DNA from: Escherichia phage vB_EcoM-LTH02
Length of the DNA stretch: 64,000 nt
Direction: 5' to 3' (one strand)
Sequence record: PP430346
Part shown: piece after piece, positions 6,906-64,000 of the stretch
Layout: each line of letters opens with the position of its first letter
How positions within the stretch are numbered: the stretch's first letter is position 1
Translations under genes and position numbers: made by a program
Notes under the pieces: generated by a model
Told to the model about the DNA's origin: nothing
The model's database searches: none
Seen by the model: only the letters and a program-made list of their open reading frames with translations

Positions 6906-8258
6906 ATGTGGAATCCAATTGTTAATGTAGATATTACATTGAACACCGCAGGAACTACAAGAGAAGGTTTTGGGCTACCACTATTTTTAGCTTCAACAGA
7001 TAACTTTGAAGAAAGAGTCCGTGGTTACACTTCCTTAACTGAAGTTGCTGAAGATTTCGATGAGAATACTGCTGCATATAAGGCTGCTAAACAACTTTGG
7101 AGTCAAACTCCTAAAGTAACTCAGCTTTATATTGGTAGACGTGCTATGCAGTACACTGTATCAATTCCTGATGCCGTTACCGAAAGTACAGACTACTCAA
7201 TTACTGTAGCTGCTGGCGGTGGAATTTCTCAACCATATCAGTATACAGCAATAGAGTCAGATACTGCTGAAAAAGTATTGCAACAGTTTAAGACACAGAT
7301 TGAAGCTGACCCAACAATCAAAGATAAGGTTTCTGTGAACGTAACTGGTAGTGGTGCTTCTGCCACAATGATTATTACCAAAGCTGGTGATAATGACTTT
7401 GTGAAAGTAACAACCACAGCACAGACTGTATATATTGCAAGCACAACTGCTGATACAGCATCAACTGCTCTGGCAGCTATTGAAGCTTATTCAACTGACT
7501 GGTATTTCATTGCAGCAGAAGATAGAACTCAACAGTTTGTCTTAGCAATGGCTTCTGAGATTCAGGCTCGTAAGAAAATCTTCTTCACTGCTAACTCTGA
7601 TGTAGCAGCACTGCAAGGCACAGAATTAAACAGTGCAAATGATGTTCCAGCACAGCTTGCTAAGAACATGTACACCCGTACAGTTTGCTTGTGGCATCAC
7701 ACAGCAGCAGAAGACTATCCAGAGATGGCATACATTGCTTATGGTGCTCCATATGATGCAGGGTCAATTGCTTGGGGTAATGCTCAGTTGACTGGTGTAG
7801 CTGCTTCTCTACAGCCAGCTAATAAGAGACCTCTGACAAGTATTCAGAAGTCTGCTTTAGATGCACGTCACTGTAACTTTATTGACCTTGATGGTGGTGT
7901 TCCAGTGGTTCGTAGAGGGATTACTTCTGGTGGGGAATGGATTGACATCATCCGTGGTGTTGACTGGTTAGAATCAGACCTGAAAACTTCTCTGAGAGAC
8001 TTGCTAATTAACCAGAAGGGTGGTAAGATTACTTATGATGATACTGGTATTACTCGTATTCGTCAAGTCATTGAAACCTCTCTACAAAGAGCAGTCAACA
8101 GAAACTTCCTGTCATCTTACACAGTTAATGTTCCTAAAGCCTCTCAAGTTGCTTTGGCAGACAAGAAAGCTCGTATCCTGAAAGATGTTACCTTCGCAGG
8201 TATCTTAGCAGGTGCTATCTTGGATGTTGACTTGAAAGGTACAGTGGCTTACGAATAA
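6906..8258 (+). CDS. Tail sheath protein
   Basis: 450-aa ORF followed by a ~150-aa ORF, a chaperone pair and the tape measure gene: the canonical contractile-tail order sheath-tube-chaperones-TMP. Confidence 0.5.
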   Translation: MWNPIVNVDITLNTAGTTREGFGLPLFLASTDNFEERVRGYTSLTEVAEDFDENTAAYKAAKQLWSQTPKVTQLYIGRRAMQYTVSIPDAVTESTDYSITVAAGGGISQPYQYTAIESDTAEKVLQQFKTQIEADPTIKDKVSVNVTGSGASATMIITKAGDNDFVKVTTTAQTVYIASTTADTASTALAAIEAYSTDWYFIAAEDRTQQFVLAMASEIQARKKIFFTANSDVAALQGTELNSANDVPAQLAKNMYTRTVCLWHHTAAEDYPEMAYIAYGAPYDAGSIAWGNAQLTGVAASLQPANKRPLTSIQKSALDARHCNFIDLDGGVPVVRRGITSGGEWIDIIRGVDWLESDLKTSLRDLLINQKGGKITYDDTGITRIRQVIETSLQRAVNRNFLSSYTVNVPKASQVALADKKARILKDVTFAGILAGAILDVDLKGTVAYE

Positions 8259-8793: not shown

Positions 8794-9192
8794 ATGAAAA
8801 CAGAATCTAGAGTAATTAATGGTAAGAAAGTAAATATCGTTCTGCTTGGGGCAAGAGATGGTATTAAGATGTCTATGAAGTTGGGTAAAATTGTTGTTCC
8901 AACTTTTGCACAGATGCTATCAAGTCTGACTGATAAAGATAAGAAAGAAGCTCCAATGGTTCCATTTAAAGAACTTGTTGAAGCTTGTTTTGACAGAATT
9001 GAAGAAATTAACCTTGAAGAAATGGCTACCCTGTTATTTCAAGGGGCAACTGTTGATGACTTCCCACTTAATATTGATACATACTTCCAAGCAAACTATG
9101 GTGAATTTATTGATTACTTAGCATTTGCGCTGGAGGCAAATTTCGGAAGTTTTTTCGAAGCAAGCATTTTCAAAAGCCTAACTTCTCAGTAA
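8794..9192 (+). CDS. Tail assembly chaperone (frame-0 product, G-like)
   Basis: 132-aa ORF between tube and tape measure genes; contains slippery heptamer near its 3' end. Confidence 0.55.
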   Translation: MKTESRVINGKKVNIVLLGARDGIKMSMKLGKIVVPTFAQMLSSLTDKDKKEAPMVPFKELVEACFDRIEEINLEEMATLLFQGATVDDFPLNIDTYFQANYGEFIDYLAFALEANFGSFFEASIFKSLTSQ

Positions 9193-9434: not shown

Positions 9435-17450
<8,016 letters not shown>

Positions 17451-56516: not shown

Positions 56517-56546
56517 TTGACAAGGGGCTTCAAAGCCCCTTAGAAT
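56517..56546 (+). promoter_or_regulatory. Candidate promoter with GC hairpin in the spacer, upstream of rIIB
   Basis: TTGACA (56517-56522), 18-nt spacer AGGGGCTTCAAAGCCCCT, TAGAAT (56541-56546). Confidence 0.4.
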
Positions 56547-57717: not shown

Positions 57718-57739
57718 GGCTGCTTCGGCGGCCTTTTTT
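57718..57739 (+). terminator. Rho-independent terminator after rIIB
   Basis: GGCTGC-TTCG-GCGGCC followed by TTTTTT. Confidence 0.6.
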
Positions 57740-57740
57740 A

Positions 57741-57769
57741 TTTGTATTTTGTGCAGAGTGCTGTATAAT
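57741..57769 (+). promoter_or_regulatory. Candidate promoter upstream of gene 57801
   Basis: TTTGTA, 17-nt spacer, perfect TATAAT (57764-57769). Confidence 0.4.
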
Positions 57770-57800: not shown

Positions 57801-58349
57801 ATGAAGAAGTTGATTCTAGGTTTGTGCTTAATGTTTACAGCACACTTATCTTATGCAGTTGACTGCCCAGAGCTATCAATTAGCCAAAAAGTAAACATGT
57901 TAAAAGCTTACCAGTATGGTGAGAATAATATGGGTAAAGGTTGGGGTATCACTCTAGCTGCTATAGCCTTACAAGAGTCAGAGTTAGGTCTGAAGGTAGA
58001 GAATAAAAAGACCCATGACTATGGTATTTTCCAGAATCACTTGAAGACTGTTGTAAAGCGTAACAAAATTAGTCCTAATGTGGCTAAAAAGAAACTCTTA
58101 AAAGACTTTGACTATGCTGCAAAGGAAACACACAAAGAGCTTGAGTTTTGGACGAAGGTACATGGTCAACCAAAGTCAAAGAAGACTTTACAAAAAGTTT
58201 TAGCGTCATATAATGCTGGGTATTCTTACAAAATCCCTAAAGCTAAGAAATATTCTCAGGATGTCTATAACAATATGAAAGTCATCGCTCAATGTGAATT
58301 TGCAACAAACATTTCTAAGGTAAATCATGAAAAAATTAAGAAAGTCTGA
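57801..58349 (+). CDS. Secreted lytic transglycosylase-like protein (candidate signal-peptide endolysin)
   Basis: Signal peptide MKKLILGLCLMFTAHLSYA; AIALQESELG...DYGIFQ resembles the catalytic E-S and GLMQ-type motifs of Slt-domain transglycosylases. Confidence 0.45.
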   Translation: MKKLILGLCLMFTAHLSYAVDCPELSISQKVNMLKAYQYGENNMGKGWGITLAAIALQESELGLKVENKKTHDYGIFQNHLKTVVKRNKISPNVAKKKLLKDFDYAAKETHKELEFWTKVHGQPKSKKTLQKVLASYNAGYSYKIPKAKKYSQDVYNNMKVIAQCEFATNISKVNHEKIKKV

Positions 58350-60953: not shown

Positions 60954-61161
60954 AAAGACTCGTAAGATTGTAAGTTCAGCAGTATTCAAAGGGAGACATA
61001 AAGTCGTCCCGTTTGCAGGAGAAGACGTGTTAACTTACAAGAAGGTGATGAAACGTGAGTGCAGTAACAATTTCCGTGACTTCTTCTCTGAACCATTAGA
61101 AGATTTTAAAAGTCGTTGTGGTAAAGGCATCATCATTCAAGAGGCAATTATTCATGGCTGA
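60928..61161 (+). CDS. Hypothetical protein
   Basis: 77-aa ORF. Confidence 0.3.
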   Translation: MKVILARDKKTRKIVSSAVFKGRHKVVPFAGEDVLTYKKVMKRECSNNFRDFFSEPLEDFKSRCGKGIIIQEAIIHG

Positions 61162-61354
61162 CTTCTGCAAAGATTGTGCTATCGAAATGTTCGGACGTGA
61201 TACAGGTGACTTAAAAGGTCTTATCACTGAAGATGACTTTAAAGCTGGCTATGCAATGCCAGTAATCTGTGAAGGTTGTGGATGTATCTGGGTAGACCAT
61301 GAAGGGCAACGTGTAAAACCTTCAGAAGACAAAGAATCTTGGGAGAGATGTTAA
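61154..61354 (+). CDS. Small zinc-ribbon protein (ATG at 61154 preferred over 61118)
   Basis: CKDC...CEGCGC cysteine pairs; ATG overlaps the previous stop. Confidence 0.3.
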   Translation: MADFCKDCAIEMFGRDTGDLKGLITEDDFKAGYAMPVICEGCGCIWVDHEGQRVKPSEDKESWERC

Positions 61355-62140
61355 ATGGGTATTGTAAAAATTATCAATGGTGATATCTTTGACGCATTTG
61401 ATAAAGGTAAGTTTGACATTATTGGTCATGGTTGCAACTGTATGAATTTCATGGGTGCAGGTATTGCAGCAACTATTTCTAAGCGTTATCCAAAAGTGTA
61501 TGATACTGATACAGAAGTTTACCTGTTTGCAGGTGGCATTCGTCACAAACCCTGTGAAAATTTACTAGGTAATTTCTCTGTAGCACGTTTAAAACAAGGT
61601 CGTATAGCTAACCTTTACACCCAACTTCATACTGGTAAAGATGCCCGATACAGTGCTTTAGAGTCATCTTTGAAGCAGCTTAACAGATACTGTGAAGTTA
61701 ATCAGTTGAAGAAAGTTGGCTTACCTATGATTGGTGCAGGTATTGGTGGGTTGGACCCTCAAGCCGTCACAGTTATCATCAATCAGGTTATGAAGAGTGT
61801 AGATGTCTATCTATATGTCTATGAAGGAGAAATGTACCACAAGTTACGCTCAGGTTGGAAGAACTACTGTGAACCAGAATACTTTGCAGGTGTAGTTGTG
61901 TTCACAGATGATACAGTTACCCTCTTCAGACGAAGAAAAGGTAAGATACATCAAAGTAACCCTCCGGTTGAGAAGATGTCTCTGAGTAACGCTCTAGTTA
62001 CCCACCTGTCGAAGAGCAATCACAGGATAGCCGTAACATTTGGCAGTGATGCAGATACATATATCTATGCAAGAACTGATGAGGATATCGAGACGGTCTT
62101 CTCTTCACCGGAAGTTACCTTCTTAGACGCAAAGAACTAA
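61355..62140 (+). CDS. Macro-domain protein (ADP-ribose binding/hydrolase fold)
   Basis: GDIFDAFDKGKFDIIGHGCNCMNFMGAGIAATI parallels the macro GDIT...IVNAAN...GGGVxGAI segment; LPMIGAGIGGLDP parallels the AFPAISTGIYGYP ribose-binding loop. Confidence 0.5.
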   Translation: MGIVKIINGDIFDAFDKGKFDIIGHGCNCMNFMGAGIAATISKRYPKVYDTDTEVYLFAGGIRHKPCENLLGNFSVARLKQGRIANLYTQLHTGKDARYSALESSLKQLNRYCEVNQLKKVGLPMIGAGIGGLDPQAVTVIINQVMKSVDVYLYVYEGEMYHKLRSGWKNYCEPEYFAGVVVFTDDTVTLFRRRKGKIHQSNPPVEKMSLSNALVTHLSKSNHRIAVTFGSDADTYIYARTDEDIETVFSSPEVTFLDAKN

Positions 62141-62210
62141 GAAACTCTGTATAATATTCACAATAGACCAAGCCTTTCTTATCTGGTAAATTTTTCAGGT
62201 AAGGAGGGCT

Positions 62211-62410
62211 TTTTCATTTCAGGATTGTGCAGGTAGAGTTCTGGACAGAAATCTGTAGAGAAAATTTTGAACTCCAAAGAGAAAATTCATTTTCAAACTG
62301 TGCAGGTAATCTCCAAAGAGCTTTTTCATTTTCAAAACGTGCAGACCCCGCTCAGGTCGGGCAAGAAAAATCATTTTAGAATTGTGCAGGTAGGTGGGTG
62401 CAGGTGGGGA
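62211..62410. repeat. Iteron-like direct repeats (4 clear + 1 degenerate copy, 40-45 bp spacing)
   Basis: TTTTCATTTCAGGATTGTGCAGGTA (62211), ATTCATTTTCAAACTGTGCAGGTA (62285), TTTTCATTTTCAAAACGTGCAGAC (62323), AAATCATTTTAGAATTGTGCAGGTA (62368), degenerate copy near 62250; followed by GTGGGTGCAGGTGGGG. Confidence 0.6.
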
Positions 62411-62569
62411 TGTCGCCATTTCTCACAAGGCTACCACATCTGAAAAGAAAAGTCAACAGAAAAATTTGTAGCGGGTTGAAAAATAATTCTTGATTGTAGT
62501 TCTGTTTTGTGGTAGTCGCGTGCGCCCGTTTCATTACAGTTTTTTGCAAAAATATTTTTAAAATTCCTA

Positions 62570-62598
62570 TTGACTCTCTGACTATGGTTATTTAGTAT
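62570..62598 (+). promoter_or_regulatory. Candidate sigma70-like promoter for the 3' small-gene array
   Basis: TTGACT (62570-62575), 17-nt spacer, TAGTAT (62593-62598); 5'-UTR hairpin GGGGAGGGAATGAACTTCCCC at 62609-62629. Confidence 0.45.
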
Positions 62599-62664
62599 TT
62601 GCATCAACGGGGAGGGAATGAACTTCCCCACTAAACAAAATCCTTAAACTAGGAGATTCAAAAA

Positions 62665-62871
62665 ATGATTTACAGCCGTGAATTGATGGTCACAACTAAC
62701 GTTAACACAAAGGTAAAACGTTTTTATATGCAAGTATGCGGCGCATGGCGTAGAATATCAGAATCTGACTATTGCAACTATGTAGAAACGGCTATTAATT
62801 CTAATTGCTATCTTACAAGAAACACTAAGAAATTTACAAGGCAGACAGCGATTTACTACTACGACAAATAA
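62665..62871 (+). CDS. Small protein 1 of 3' array
   Basis: 68-aa ORF with GGAGA RBS; stop codon forms the start of the downstream palindrome. Confidence 0.4.
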   Translation: MIYSRELMVTTNVNTKVKRFYMQVCGAWRRISESDYCNYVETAINSNCYLTRNTKKFTRQTAIYYYDK

Positions 62872-62957
62872 AGTACTTTACAGGGGGCTTAAAAGCTGAT
62901 ATCTTAAGCCCCAGATAAAGAGCTTTACCACTAAATCCTAAACTGGAGAACTTAAAA
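62869..62957 (+). promoter_or_regulatory. Repeated leader cassette A: palindrome TAAAGTACTTTA - GC hairpin - TAAAGAGCTTTA - RBS
   Basis: Palindrome 62869-62880; stem GGGGCTTAA/TTAAGCCCC (62884-62912); second half-palindrome 62916-62927; GGAGA then ATG at 62958. Confidence 0.6.
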
Positions 62958-63341
62958 ATGGCATACCGTGCACCTAAATTCATCAACAAAGACAACTTTC
63001 GCAACGCACTGGAGAAGTCACTTGATGAAAATTTTAAAGGTAACATTATCGTTGTTCACGCATTCAATTTTAAGTATGATGTAAACGGGAATAGAATCAA
63101 CCATTACACAGCAACCATGTTAGATGGTACGCTATCAAGTGAAAAAGCTGTACTGAATGCACTTGCAGGACGTGGTAAAAACCTGATAAGATGCGATAAG
63201 AGACGTTATCAGGGTGGCGCATATGGTTATGATGATGCTGTTTATCATCTTGAAAATATGGGCTATTCAGTGGAAAAAGCTGGAGCATCACAAATCATCG
63301 GCAGCGATGGTTATGTAACTATCTTCAAAATTAACAAATAA
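62958..63341 (+). CDS. Small protein 2 of 3' array
   Basis: 127-aa ORF between cassettes A and B. Confidence 0.45.
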   Translation: MAYRAPKFINKDNFRNALEKSLDENFKGNIIVVHAFNFKYDVNGNRINHYTATMLDGTLSSEKAVLNALAGRGKNLIRCDKRRYQGGAYGYDDAVYHLENMGYSVEKAGASQIIGSDGYVTIFKINK

Positions 63342-63426
63342 AGTACTTTACAAGGGGCTTATAGTTCGATAAAGTAAGCCCCAGATAAAGAGCTTTACCA
63401 CTAAATCCTAAATTGGAGATTCAAAA
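63339..63426 (+). promoter_or_regulatory. Repeated leader cassette B (same architecture, different hairpin loop)
   Basis: TAAAGTACTTTA 63339-63350; stem GGGGCTTA/TAAGCCCC with loop TAGTTCGATAAAG; TAAAGAGCTTTA 63386-63397; ATG 63427. Confidence 0.6.
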
Positions 63427-63684
63427 ATGGCTATTATCAAAAACGTTGTAATTACCGCAAAGACTCGTGATGACGCTCGTATCATGGCTAAAAAGTTATG
63501 CGGGAAAGTGGTTGACAACGGAAAACAATCTGCTGTAAGGTGGGGCGTGAAGGTTGATAAACAGTTAACTTTAAAACGCAGTTCAAACAACCTTTTTAAA
63601 GGTGTAAAAACACTCGGTAAAGTGAACGTGTTCACTAAACAAGGTTACAAAATGCACTTATCTTTAACTGGCAATTTAATCTGA
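63427..63684 (+). CDS. Small protein 3 of 3' array
   Basis: 85-aa ORF between cassettes B and C. Confidence 0.45.
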   Translation: MAIIKNVVITAKTRDDARIMAKKLCGKVVDNGKQSAVRWGVKVDKQLTLKRSSNNLFKGVKTLGKVNVFTKQGYKMHLSLTGNLI

Positions 63685-63772
63685 TAAAGTACTTTACAAG
63701 GGGCTTAAAAGCTGATATCTTAAGCCCCAGATAAAGAGCTTTACCACTAAATCCTAAACTGGAGATTCAAAA
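63685..63772 (+). promoter_or_regulatory. Repeated leader cassette C
   Basis: Same palindromes and a hairpin (63700-63728) identical to cassette A; ATG 63773. Confidence 0.6.
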
Positions 63773-63943
63773 ATGAAAACTGTAGACGCTACCTTTGAAG
63801 TTGTAAAAGAAAAATTTTCCATCATTTACGAAGCTGTTAATTGCTACGAAGCAAGCCATAACCTTGATAATTGGGAATTTACAGACAACCATCAAGGCGG
63901 TGTTACTGTTAAAAATCCTATTTATCAGCGTAATGAGTTTTAA
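63773..63943 (+). CDS. Small protein 4 of 3' array (56 aa, not in track)
   Basis: ATG preceded by cassette C RBS; open to TAA at 63941-63943. Confidence 0.4.
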   Translation: MKTVDATFEVVKEKFSIIYEAVNCYEASHNLDNWEFTDNHQGGVTVKNPIYQRNEF

Positions 63944-64000
63944 TATGCAATCCCTTTACATTACAGCCTGAAACAGCTTTCGAGTGACTATGCAAAACAA

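What the first reader, a model, noticed from the sequence alone, without database searches (positions are those of the whole stretch)
62869..63772. Array of small genes separated by a repeated palindrome-hairpin-palindrome leader cassette
Three consecutive intergenic regions (62869-62957, 63339-63426, 63685-63772) carry the same ~88-bp cassette. It starts with a perfect 12-bp palindrome TAAAGTACTTTA (incorporating the upstream stop codon), then a 9-bp GC stem, then a second near-palindrome TAAAGAGCTTTA, then a conserved RBS. Cassette B keeps the stem but has a different loop, which supports a structure under selection. Two operator-like palindromes flanking a hairpin at every gene junction suggests coordinated control of the small early-type genes by a dimeric DNA- or RNA-binding regulator, and also provides repeats that could drive gene shuffling.
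Basis: seen in the sequence. Interest (0 to 1): 0.75.

Follow-up and report, generated by a model that had tools for sequence, protein, structure and literature searches.

The report
Promoter-in-hairpin cassettes between early phage genes
The repeated 88-base spacer between small genes of this Felix O1-like phage is probably a compact control module: one long RNA hairpin with a host-type promoter built into it, followed by a shared ribosome-binding leader, much like the "PeSL" cassettes that shuffle genes in T4-like phages.

Summary
Three about 90% identical cassettes of about 88 nt sit at 62869-62957, 63339-63426 and 63685-63772, all in gene orientation. The window is a Felixounavirus. In relatives the array continues for 13 or more junctions past the window end.

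The two "palindromes" are not separate operators. They pair with each other as the lower stem of one bipartite sense-strand hairpin: 12 bp, a 3x3 internal loop, 9 bp, an 11-nt loop, about -24.5 kcal/mol. Compensatory changes across three other phage genera support this.

Superimposed on the hairpin is a sigma-70/T4-early-type promoter, TTTACA-N17-TAnnnT. The -10 lies in the loop. The motif is present in all 42 distinct variants (spacer 18 in one), while the three middle -10 bases vary freely. A 30-nt leader with GGAG follows.

A second junction type in the same array is TTGACA-like-N17-TAAATT followed by a hairpin near the predicted 5' end. Genes between cassettes are gained, lost, duplicated and moved among relatives.

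This matches the PeSL design known from T4-like phages, here in the subfamily Ounavirinae. The repeats themselves were already noted, without a function, in the Felix O1 and Mordin genome papers. What the two-turn helix does (RNase III site, 3' stabiliser or attenuator) is inferred, not shown.

The parts
62570..62598 (+). Head-of-array sigma-70 promoter: TTGACT (62570-62575), 17 nt, TAGTAT (62593-62598), preceded by an A/T-rich stretch
   Evidence: promoter scan; one search shows the same layout at all 37 leader-bearing junctions of this type in the window and relatives
62609..62629 (+). Short hairpin GGGGAGG-GAATGAA-CTTCCCC, starting about 3 nt after the predicted transcript start (type-2 cassette hairpin)
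   Evidence: fourth fold
62630..62664 (+). Shared leader ACTAAACAAAATCCTTAAACTAGGAGATTCAAAAA, with GGAG at 62652-62655, before gene A (ATG at 62665)
   Evidence: (family D4)
62665..62871 (+). Gene A, 68 aa, PHROG 5293, function unknown
62869..62957 (+). Type-1 cassette A (stop codon to the base before the ATG)
62869..62880 (+). Cassette A, lower-stem 5' arm TAAAGTACTTTA
62877..62882 (+). Cassette A, -35 element TTTACA (invariant in 42 of 42 variants)
62884..62912 (+). Cassette A, upper stem-loop GGGGCTTAA-(11 nt)-TTAAGCCCC
62900..62905 (+). Cassette A, -10 element TATCTT preceded by TGA (extended -10), lying in the loop and the 3' strand of the upper stem. Predicted transcript start about 62912-62913
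62916..62927 (+). Cassette A, lower-stem 3' arm TAAAGAGCTTTA
62928..62957 (+). Cassette A leader CCACTAAATCCTAAACTGGAGAACTTAAAA, with GGAG at 62945-62948
62958..63341 (+). Gene B, 127 aa, PHROG 4495, function unknown. Absent from Felix O1
63339..63426 (+). Type-1 cassette B: arms 63339-63350 and 63386-63397; -35 at 63347-63352; upper stem 63354-63362 with 63374-63382; -10 TAAAGT at 63370-63375; GGAG at 63415-63418
63427..63684 (+). Gene C, 85 aa, PHROG 5089, function unknown. Absent from Felix O1, duplicated in Michonne
63685..63772 (+). Type-1 cassette C: arms 63685-63696 and 63732-63743; -35 at 63693-63698; upper stem 63700-63708 with 63720-63728; -10 TATCTT at 63716-63721; GGAG at 63761-63764
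63773..63943 (+). Gene D, truncated to 56 aa by an AAA to TAA change. Relatives encode 170 aa (PHROG 4190)
56517..56546 (+). Related promoter-with-hairpin at the rIIA-rIIB junction: TTGACA (56517-56522), an 18-nt spacer that forms the hairpin AGGGGCT-TCAA-AGCCCCT (56523-56540), then TAGAAT (56541-56546)

Best explanation
Each cassette is a composite regulatory module of the PeSL type (promoter-early plus stem-loop plus Shine-Dalgarno), serving one small early-region gene. Read as DNA, it carries a host sigma-70 (T4-early-like) promoter: -35 TTTACA, exactly 17 bp, then -10 TAnnnT. The -35 sits at the foot of the GC stem and the -10 sits in the loop. A transcript would then start near the 3' end of the upper stem (about 62912, 63382 and 63728) and carry a roughly 45-nt unstructured A/U-rich leader with GGAG 9 nt before the ATG. 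Read as RNA, in transcripts arriving from upstream, the same 62 nt fold into one interrupted helix of about two turns (12 bp, a 3x3 internal loop, 9 bp). That helix marks the 3' boundary of the upstream message. Its most likely roles are a processing or stability element (an RNase III-type substrate, or a barrier to 3' exonucleases) or a weak attenuator. Either role would uncouple neighbouring genes. Because nearly identical cassettes flank unrelated genes, they also supply homology for recombination that adds, removes, duplicates and moves gene-plus-cassette modules. Shown here: the repeat, the conserved hairpin with covariation, the conserved promoter geometry, the shared leader, and cassette-bounded differences in gene content. 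Inferred: promoter activity, the transcript start, the fate of the hairpin RNA, and recombination as the cause of the differences.
For: Hairpin: MFE -24.3 to -24.8 kcal/mol, z -3.7 to -3.9, 0 of 200 shuffles as stable. On 29 distinct variants from 4 genera, 91.2% of cells are paired against 54% or less when the partners are slid. The covariation score is 0.139 against 0.063 for shuffles (0 of 500 reach it). Double changes occur at pair 7-58 (GC/UA), pair 20-45 (GC/UA) and pair 27-39 (AU/UA/GC/UG). G.U occurs at 8-57 (22 of 29) and 22-43 (19 of 29). The sense strand is more stable in 29 of 42 variants, p=0.007.

Promoter: TTTACA is invariant. The spacer is 17 nt in 41 of 42 variants and 18 in one. 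T, A and the final T of the hexamer are invariant, while the middle three positions carry 0.6, 0.02 and 0.05 bits. TGn precedes the hexamer in 20 of 42. The consensus scan flags all three window copies. Stem and loop sizes change (7-11 bp, 7-14 nt) without changing the -35 to -10 spacing. The rIIA-rIIB junction has TTGACA-N17/18-TAGAAT with a related hairpin inside the spacer, conserved in Felixounavirus, Mooglevirus and Suspvirus. All 37 type-2 junctions have a 4-6/6 match to TTGACA, exactly 17 nt, TAAATT/TAAAGT/TAATAT/TAGTAT, then 10 nt, then the hairpin. As a control, no -35 is found upstream of the first TAAAGT of the type-1 cassette.

Orientation and confinement: 64 of 64 copies are co-oriented with the genes and lie in the array.

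Shuffling: Felix O1 lacks genes B and C and genes J to M. ECP2307 lacks K. XTG1 has gene E at the head of the array, whereas Mordin has it between M and U. Erwinia phages carry the shared gene families in a different order. Window cassette B is 100% identical over 99 nt to the cassette at an unrelated junction of EF202P1 and ECP2307.

Literature: PeSLs are sigma-70-like promoters plus stem-loops plus a Shine-Dalgarno sequence, with the stem-loop most often between -35 and -10 or overlapping the -10 (PMC2839356). The PST/T4 PeSL promoter consensus is TTTACW-N17-TAYWAT (PMC4122927). By RT-PCR, Felix O1 array genes 16, 20, 21 and 22 peak at 5 min but genes 17, 19 and 23 peak at 25 min (PMC3185647). 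This weakly argues against one uniform polycistronic RNA.
Against: No transcript 5' or 3' end data exist for any Felix O1-like phage in the searched literature, so promoter activity is untested. The -10 hexamers are weak (4-5 of 6 matches to TATAAT), and the final T also belongs to the stem. T34 and A35 could instead be RNA-loop recognition bases. The 3' arm and the internal-loop bases G48 and A49 are more strictly conserved than pairing alone requires, which neither the promoter nor the helix fully explains. Many pairs are invariant, and the structure was derived from these same sequences, so the covariation statistics are supportive but not decisive. There is no U-tract after the hairpin, so a classical terminator role like that claimed for PeSL stem-loops is unlikely.
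Confidence: 0.6

Rival explanations
1. A pure RNA processing signal. The array is one polycistronic RNA from the promoter at 62570-62598, and each long hairpin is a T7-style RNase III site that cuts it into monocistronic mRNAs ending in protective 3' hairpins. The promoter-like bases would then be RNA recognition features.
For: The helix is 21 bp plus a 3x3 internal loop, about two turns. [quoted passage not shown] The lower stem has compensatory changes although the GC stem alone would do for a simple hairpin. A strong promoter heads the array.
Against: It does not explain the fixed 17-nt distance between TTTACA and TAnnnT while stem and loop sizes change. It does not explain the same -35/-10 geometry around a different hairpin at rIIA-rIIB. 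Other junctions of the same array carry clear promoters. Proximal-box and distal-box rules were not evaluated, and no cleavage data exist. The hairpin matches no Rfam family.
Confidence: 0.15
2. One reading: the two palindromes are DNA operators for a dimeric phage or host regulator that switches the whole set of small genes on or off.
For: In the window, TAAAGTACTTTA is a perfect palindrome overlapping the -35, and TAAAGAGCTTTA lies at about +4 to +15. These are sensible positions for a repressor. The 3' arm is more conserved than pairing alone needs.
Against: The 5' arm is a perfect palindrome in only 14 of 42 variants, and the 3' arm in none. Variants lose both the palindromy and the resemblance between arms but keep inter-arm complementarity through mirrored changes. 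G.U pairs and strand asymmetry favour RNA. Type-2 junctions of the same array lack both motifs yet carry the same leader. No candidate binding protein was identified.
Confidence: 0.07
3. An intrinsic terminator or attenuator only: each hairpin stops or damps transcription after each gene.
For: A GC-rich stem sits directly after the stop codon. PeSL stem-loops reduced downstream lacZ expression as strongly as rrnB T1 (PMC2839356). Automatic annotation of XTG1 marks terminators in this array, although those marked features fall on the short type-2 hairpins or on the opposite strand, not on the type-1 cassette.
Against: There is no U-tract after either the upper stem (AGAUAAAGAG) or the full hairpin (CCACUAAAUCC). 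The terminator scan finds none in the cassettes. Full termination would leave downstream genes unexpressed unless a promoter follows, which leads back to the composite model.
Confidence: 0.06
4. A start-associated sequence (SAS/ESAS-like): a translation-initiation-linked motif whose inverted repeats are bound by an unknown factor, as proposed for cluster K mycobacteriophages.
For: The Mordin authors noted a 26-bp repeat before 8 start codons and compared it with SASs (PMC4611695). About half of the SAS-bearing genes in cluster K have an extended SAS, an imperfect inverted repeat just upstream of the SAS (PMC3203893). The leader is nearly identical in both cassette types.
Against: This names an analogy of unknown function rather than a mechanism. 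For ESAS the authors found little support for hairpin formation, whereas here the pairing covaries. There is no sequence relatedness.
Confidence: 0.08

Closest known systems
PeSL cassettes (promoter-early stem-loop) of T4-like myoviruses: RB49/phi1, PST/T4, nt-1/KVP40 (Arbiol et al. 2010, PMC2839356; Comeau et al. 2014, PMC4122927)
   Same: [quoted passage not shown] They have an A/T-rich start, a sigma-70-type promoter with N17 spacing, and a G-run/C-run stem-loop placed between -35 and -10 or over the -10. A Shine-Dalgarno sequence and start codon lie at the 3' end. They are clustered between small genes of unknown function in a variable region, and gene gain and loss are bounded by the cassettes. 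The -35/-10 consensus (TTTACA-N17-TAnnnT) closely matches the PST/T4 PeSL consensus TTTACW-N17-TAYWAT.
   Different: This is a different phage subfamily (Ounavirinae), and sequence homology to PeSLs was not tested. The stem-loop is extended by a second 12-bp A/U-rich helix, formed by the -35 region and bases about +4 to +15, into a two-turn interrupted helix. That feature is not described for PeSLs. There is no U-tract. A second cassette type has its hairpin downstream of the transcript start. Promoter, terminator and mini-circle activities are untested here.
RNase III processing sites of the phage T7 early region (R0.3 to R1.3; R1.1 is the model substrate; Pertzev and Nicholson 2006, PMC1540722; T7 layout from my own knowledge)
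   Same: Hairpins of about 60 nt sit between consecutive early genes. An upper and a lower helix are separated by an internal loop, giving about two helical turns in total. The 3' hairpin left on the upstream message is expected to be protective.
   Different: T7 sites carry no embedded promoter and serve one long transcript. Cleavage here is untested, box rules were not evaluated, and there is no sequence similarity.
Start-associated sequences (SAS) and extended SAS of cluster K mycobacteriophages (Pope et al. 2011, PMC3203893)
   Same: A conserved motif lies immediately upstream of, and including, the ribosome-binding site of many non-structural genes. In a subset, an imperfect inverted repeat lies just upstream. 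The comparison was already made for the Felix O1-like phage Mordin (PMC4611695).
   Different: ESAS arms are 17 bp with a 4-13 bp spacer, and the authors saw little support for hairpin formation. Here the arms are 12 bp, enclose a second stem-loop, covary, and overlap a promoter. Host and sequence are unrelated.
5'-terminal stabilising stem-loops of E. coli mRNAs (ompA type; my own knowledge, not checked here)
   Same: In the type-2 cassette, including the window's array head at 62609-62629, a GC hairpin starts about 3 nt after the predicted transcript start. That is the position at which such hairpins slow 5'-end-dependent decay.
   Different: This applies only to type 2. In the type-1 cassette of the finding, the predicted transcript starts inside the hairpin and cannot form it.

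Membership tests
PeSL (promoter-early stem-loop cassette) | [quoted passage not shown] | tested here: met
   the cassettes span stop to ATG; genes A to D have no Pfam family and PHROGs of unknown function; gene content varies among relatives
PeSL (promoter-early stem-loop cassette) | Sigma-70-like early promoter (-35, N17, -10) with an A/T-rich segment upstream | tested here: met
   TTTACA invariant, spacer 17 nt in 41 of 42 variants, TAnnnT in 42 of 42; flags all three window copies; upstream AATAAAGTAC is A/T-rich. This is a sequence motif only
PeSL (promoter-early stem-loop cassette) | Stable stem-loop with G and C runs, located between -35 and -10 or overlapping the -10 | tested here: met
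   GGGGCTTAA/TTAAGCCCC begins 2 nt after the -35 and the -10 lies in its loop and 3' strand; at rIIA-rIIB the hairpin is wholly inside the spacer
PeSL (promoter-early stem-loop cassette) | Shine-Dalgarno sequence and start codon at the 3' end | tested here: met
   GGAG lies 9 nt before the ATG in all three window cassettes; searches show the same in relatives
PeSL (promoter-early stem-loop cassette) | Measured promoter activity and transcription-damping activity of the stem-loop | not testable with these tools
   needs reporter fusions or transcript end mapping; no such data found
PeSL (promoter-early stem-loop cassette) | Recombination between cassettes causing insertion, deletion or replacement of the flanked genes (and mini-circles) | tested here: inconclusive
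   cassette-bounded presence/absence of B and C, K, and J to M, and relocation of E; identical cassettes at non-orthologous junctions. This is consistent with recombination, but the events were not observed and mini-circles are not testable
PeSL (promoter-early stem-loop cassette) | Described host group: T4-like myoviruses | tested here: not met
   the window is a Felixounavirus (Ounavirinae). This concerns the range described so far, not the mechanism
E. coli RNase III substrate (T7 R1.1 type) | Double helix of about two turns, possibly through stacked shorter helices | tested here: met
   12 bp (one A.A mismatch), a 3x3 loop, then 9 bp; criterion from PMC1540722
E. coli RNase III substrate (T7 R1.1 type) | Internal loop or bulge that limits cleavage to one strand | tested here: inconclusive
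   a conserved internal loop CAN/AGA is predicted, but the cleavage pattern is unknown
E. coli RNase III substrate (T7 R1.1 type) | No inhibitory base pairs in the proximal and distal boxes | not tested
   the boxes are defined relative to the cleavage site, which is unknown here
E. coli RNase III substrate (T7 R1.1 type) | rnc-dependent cleavage in vivo or cleavage in vitro | not testable with these tools
   an experiment is needed
Intrinsic (Rho-independent) terminator | GC-rich hairpin directly followed by a U-tract | tested here: not met
   no terminator-like site in any cassette; the sequences after the stems are AGATAAAGAG and CCACTAAATCC
Paired palindromic operators for a dimeric DNA-binding regulator | Each site keeps dyad symmetry across variants | tested here: not met
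   the 5' arm is perfectly palindromic in 14 of 42 variants and the 3' arm in 0 of 42; changes are compensated between the arms, not within them
SAS/ESAS of cluster K mycobacteriophages | Conserved motif at the ribosome-binding site of many genes, with an upstream imperfect inverted repeat in a subset | tested here: met
   This is an architectural analogy only: there is no sequence relation, the host phylum differs, and here the repeat pairs as RNA

The most novel reading that the evidence does not exclude
The same 62 nt work twice: as DNA they are an early promoter, and as read-through RNA they are a two-turn helix that RNase III (or a phage factor) cuts in the conserved AGA side of the internal loop. 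That cut would fall within a nucleotide or two of where the promoter starts. Primary and processed mRNAs for each gene would then share the same 5' end and leader. Each gene's output would be buffered against its position in the array, and modules could be shuffled freely without changing expression.
Probability: 0.18. Interest if true: 0.55.

Novelty: new member of a known kind. Interest (0 to 1): 0.4.

Why it matters
Felix O1-like phages are widely used for Salmonella typing, for biocontrol and as therapy candidates. Yet their early transcription is uncharted: the genome paper listed only five promoters and left open how transcription gets past the many terminators. Reading these repeats as promoter-in-hairpin cassettes supplies about 15 predicted early promoters per genome and explains why each small gene carries the same leader. 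It also gives a concrete mechanism for the rapid turnover of small early genes, the likely host-takeover and anti-defence genes. Finally, it suggests that the PeSL design is not peculiar to T4-like phages. It may be a convergent or shared solution in large virulent myoviruses that depend on the host RNA polymerase.

Tried and rejected
- Rfam scan of 61000-64000 at a permissive threshold gave only chance-level hits, none explaining the hairpin.
- Classical terminator: no U-tract, and the scan was negative.
- Second promoter using the first TAAAGT as a -10: no consistent -35 upstream (best matches mostly 2-3 of 6). Rejected, and it serves as a negative control for the promoter motif analysis.
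- RegB-like nuclease acting on the conserved GGAG leaders, prompted by an annotation note in Mordin: the homologue at 57801-58349 shows only a weak, sub-threshold SLT (lytic transglycosylase) domain match and no RegB family. Dropped.
- Function of the small proteins: no Pfam family, and PHROGs of unknown function. Not pursued with the large protein searches, because the question concerns the non-coding cassette.
- Literature searches for transcript mapping in Felix O1-like phages found nothing usable. A search for PeSL together with Felix returned only unrelated papers.
- Michonne's fused double cassette with a duplicated gene C was not used as evidence. Its junction (AAAATG|CTTTACA) lacks clear homology, and the record may contain an assembly artefact.
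Full report
**What is there.** The window is part of a Felix O1-like myovirus (Felixounavirus). A megablast of 62100-64000 hits 249 phage records, with the best hits at 92-95% identity. A more sensitive search reaches 306 records, including Mooglevirus, Suspvirus and Erwinia Kolesnikvirus phages.

- The three intergenic regions named in the finding are copies of one element: 92-nt copies at 62868-62959, 63338-63429 and 63684-63775, 83-100% identical to the reference copy.
- A 29-mer from the element occurs exactly three times in the window, against 0.00 expected.
One correction: the third upstream gene ends at TGA, and the TAA of the palindrome is a second in-frame stop.
- A covariance model built from the element finds only these three strong copies in the 64 kb (84-86 bits on the + strand, about 40 bits on the - strand), plus one weak relative between rIIA and rIIB.

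**The surrounding array.**
- The macro-domain gene (61355-62140) ends with a classical terminator (62170-62219). This is terminator t13 of the Felix O1 paper.
- After about 350 nt of repeat-rich non-coding DNA comes a promoter: TTGACT-17-TAGTAT at 62570-62598. Ten nucleotides downstream lies a short hairpin (62609-62629), followed by a leader that resembles the 3' part of the cassettes, and then gene A.
- Genes A, B, C and D follow, separated by the three cassettes. The window ends inside D.
- In relatives that are 94-95% identical (EF202P1, ECP2307) the array runs on for 13 or more junctions.
- There are two junction types. Type 1 is the cassette of the finding. Type 2 is a sigma-70 promoter followed by the short hairpin GGGGAGGGAATGACCTTCCCC. 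Both end in almost the same leader, ACTAAaTaaAgTCCTtAAACTaGGAGATTCaAAAATG.

**The two palindromes are one hairpin.**
- Folding each cassette gives a single structure in which TAAAGTACTTTA pairs with TAAAGAGCTTTA. The result is a 12-bp lower stem with one A.A mismatch and one U.G pair, a 3x3 internal loop, the 9-bp GC-rich upper stem, and an 11-nt loop.
- The MFE is -24.3 to -24.8 kcal/mol, z is -3.7 to -3.9, and no shuffle out of 200 is as stable.
- I collected 62 copies from the window and ten relatives by pattern search, giving 42 distinct 62-64-nt cores. The covariance model then found 61 + strand copies in the ten loci. All 64 copies are in the array and co-oriented with the genes.
- On 29 distinct variants, 91.2% of cells form standard pairs, against 30-54% when the 3' partners are slid by 1-3 columns. 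The covariation score is 0.139, against 0.063 +/- 0.008 in shuffles (0 of 500 reach it).
- Four pairs show changes on both sides: 7-58 GC/UA in the lower stem, 20-45 GC/UA in the upper stem, 27-39 with AU, UA, GC and UG, and 3-62.

Two copies of the same palindrome would be complementary to each other by construction, so pairing alone does not exclude two operators. The informative cases are the variants AGATTTCTTTA / TAAAGAGATTT and AAATTGCTTTA / TAAAGAGATTT. In these, neither arm is a palindrome and the arms do not resemble each other, yet they pair fully, because the change sits at the mirrored position.

- The 5' arm is a perfect palindrome in only 14 of 42 variants, and the 3' arm in none.
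- U.G pairs at 8-57 and 22-43 would be A.C mismatches on the other strand.
- The sense strand is more stable than the antisense strand (-22.8 against -20.8 kcal/mol; more stable in 29 of 42; p=0.007).

Selection therefore acts on a sense-strand fold, most simply the RNA.

**A promoter is written into the hairpin.** Column statistics of the variants give the following:
- TTTACA is invariant.
- The next base is free (0.19 bits).
- Exactly 17 nt later, the hexamer is TAnnnT in 41 of 42 variants. The remaining variant has an 18-nt spacer.
- T, A and the last T of the hexamer are invariant, while the three middle positions carry 0.6, 0.02 and 0.05 bits.
- Seven different hexamers occur: TATCTT, TAAGAT, TAAAGT, TAATCT, TAGTAT, TATGAT and TAGGAT.
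- TGn precedes the hexamer in 20 of 42 variants.

This is the conservation pattern of a sigma-70 -10 element (-12T, -11A, -7T), lying in the loop and the 3' strand of the upper stem, with the -35 at the stem's foot. The generic promoter scan flags all three window copies. Stem and loop sizes differ between variants (7-11 bp and 7-14 nt), but the -35 to -10 distance does not.

Three further observations support this reading.
- The weak model hit between rIIA and rIIB is TTGACA, an 18-nt spacer that forms a related hairpin (AGGGGCT-TCAA-AGCCCCT), then TAGAAT. In Mooglevirus and Suspvirus the spacer is 17 nt, with the same two hexamers.
- Every one of the 37 type-2 junctions has a 4-6/6 match to TTGACA, exactly 17 nt, then TAAATT, TAAAGT, TAATAT or TAGTAT, then 10 nt, then the hairpin. 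This holds even where the -35 lies in the upstream coding sequence.
- As a negative control, the TAAAGT at the start of type-1 cassettes has no consistent -35 upstream. Best scores are mostly 2-3 of 6.

The predicted transcript start of a type-1 cassette is about 7 nt after the hexamer (62912, 63382 and 63728). Its own transcript therefore lacks the 5' half of the hairpin and carries a roughly 45-nt A/U-rich leader.

**What the hairpin RNA does.** Only transcripts coming from upstream contain the whole hairpin. There is no U-tract after either the upper stem or the full hairpin, and the terminator scan is negative, so a classical terminator is unlikely.

The 21 paired positions interrupted by a conserved internal loop amount to about two helical turns. 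[quoted passage not shown] The layout, hairpins of about 60 nt between consecutive early genes, recalls the T7 early region (my own knowledge). The GC stem alone would suffice as a simple hairpin, and the rIIA-rIIB and type-2 elements use just such a stem. That fact makes the covarying lower stem the best argument for a length-dependent reader such as RNase III.

This step is inference. A plain barrier to 3' exonucleases or a weak attenuator fits the data equally well. End-point RT-PCR in Felix O1 shows that array genes 16, 20, 21 and 22 are maximal at 5 min, but genes 17, 19 and 23 at 25 min (PMC3185647). This is weak evidence that neighbouring modules are not simply parts of one uniform RNA.

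**Gene shuffling.** I clustered the proteins encoded in the arrays of eleven genomes. The result shows cassette-bounded differences.
- Felix O1 goes from A directly to D through a single cassette, lacking B and C, and also lacks J to M.
- ECP2307 lacks K.
- SUSP1 has an extra gene after A.
- XTG1 carries gene family E at the head of the array, whereas Mordin and Michonne carry it between M and U.
- The Erwinia phages hold the shared families in a different order (B, D, H, L, F, M, O, K).
- Cassette types are also exchanged between junctions. The C|D junction carries the TATCTT-loop cassette in the window but the TAAAGT-loop cassette in ECP2307.
- Window cassette B is 100% identical over 99 nt to the cassette at the unrelated H|I junction of EF202P1 and ECP2307.
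- All copies within a genus share genus-specific substitutions, including the compensatory G20-C44 to U-A change in Erwinia phages. This indicates concerted evolution.

**Comparison with what is known.** The design matches the PeSL cassettes of T4-like phages on several points:
- a sigma-70-like early promoter with an A/T-rich upstream segment;
- a G-run/C-run stem-loop most often between -35 and -10 or over the -10;
- a Shine-Dalgarno sequence and start codon at the 3' end;
- clustering among genes of unknown function in variable regions;
- recombination between copies (PMC2839356).

The PST/T4 PeSL promoter consensus, TTTACW-N17-TAYWAT (PMC4122927), is nearly the one found here. The differences are the phage group (Ounavirinae), the extra lower helix that makes a two-turn bipartite hairpin, the lack of a U-tract, and a second cassette type with the hairpin placed after the transcript start.

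The repeats were noticed before, without a function being assigned. The Felix O1 genome paper lists a 57-bp direct repeat, which is the core of this cassette, and a 39-bp repeat, which is the type-2 promoter. The Mordin announcement notes a 26-bp repeat before eight start codons and likens it to the start-associated sequences of cluster K mycobacteriophages. I found no paper that reads them as promoter-in-hairpin cassettes or links them to PeSLs.

**Verdict.** Its promoter and hairpin are supported by conservation and covariation, while its activities are untested. It is a new member of a known kind and of moderate interest. The small proteins A to D have no recognisable function.

Noticed in passing
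window 62205-62400 (also 57737-57755): Four to five direct repeats of about 28-34 nt, CTCCAAAGAG..TTTTCATTTTCAAAAcGTGCAGgt, lie in the non-coding stretch between the macro-domain gene terminator and the array promoter. The first copy overlaps the terminator's T-tract. The core TTCATTT-N7-GTGCA is exact at 62213, 62286 and 62325, and has one mismatch at 62370 and at 57737, just after the rIIB terminator. The repeats are conserved in Mordin and, as TTTTCATTTTCAATTTGTGCATAG repeated four times, in Erwinia phage phiEa21-4. They could be a phage-specific promoter class, regulator sites or iterons.
   Followed up: partly
window 63773-63943: The fourth array gene is cut to 56 aa by a single AAA to TAA change at 63941-63943. 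EF202P1, ECP2307, Felix O1 and XTG1 encode a 170-aa protein (PHROG 4190) from the same start. This is either a pseudogene in this phage or a sequencing error.
   Followed up: yes
window 56517-56546: The rIIA-rIIB intergenic region holds a near-consensus promoter, TTGACA-N18-TAGAAT, whose spacer is itself a 7-bp GC hairpin. It is conserved in Felixounavirus, Mooglevirus and Suspvirus, but not in the Kolesnikvirus-like PMBT37, which has a different hairpin there.
   Followed up: yes
L009 (Michonne) 7008-7870; L003 (Mordin) 8918-9060: Michonne has a 430-bp tandem duplication of cassette plus gene C, joined as ...GGAGAATCTAAAATG|CTTTACATGGGG..., so a leader and ATG are fused directly to the next cassette. 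Mordin has two type-1 hairpins in tandem with no gene between them. These are either recombination scars or, for Michonne (record length exactly 90000), possibly an assembly artefact.
   Followed up: partly
L004 (phiEa21-4) 13761-14948: At the distal end of the Erwinia phage array lies a 1.2-kb non-coding stretch densely packed with short repeats (TTCTAA, GTTAA(C/G)A). The equivalent gaps in Felix O1, Mordin and SUSP1 (about 1.5-1.7 kb between the array and the oppositely oriented genes) were not examined.
   Followed up: no
window 57801-58349: The homologue of T4 Vs.1 is annotated in Mordin as 'similar to T4 endoribonuclease RegB'. It shows only a weak, sub-threshold SLT (lytic transglycosylase) domain match and no RegB family. 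The RegB label in that record looks like an annotation slip derived from 'vs-regB intergenic region'.
   Followed up: yes
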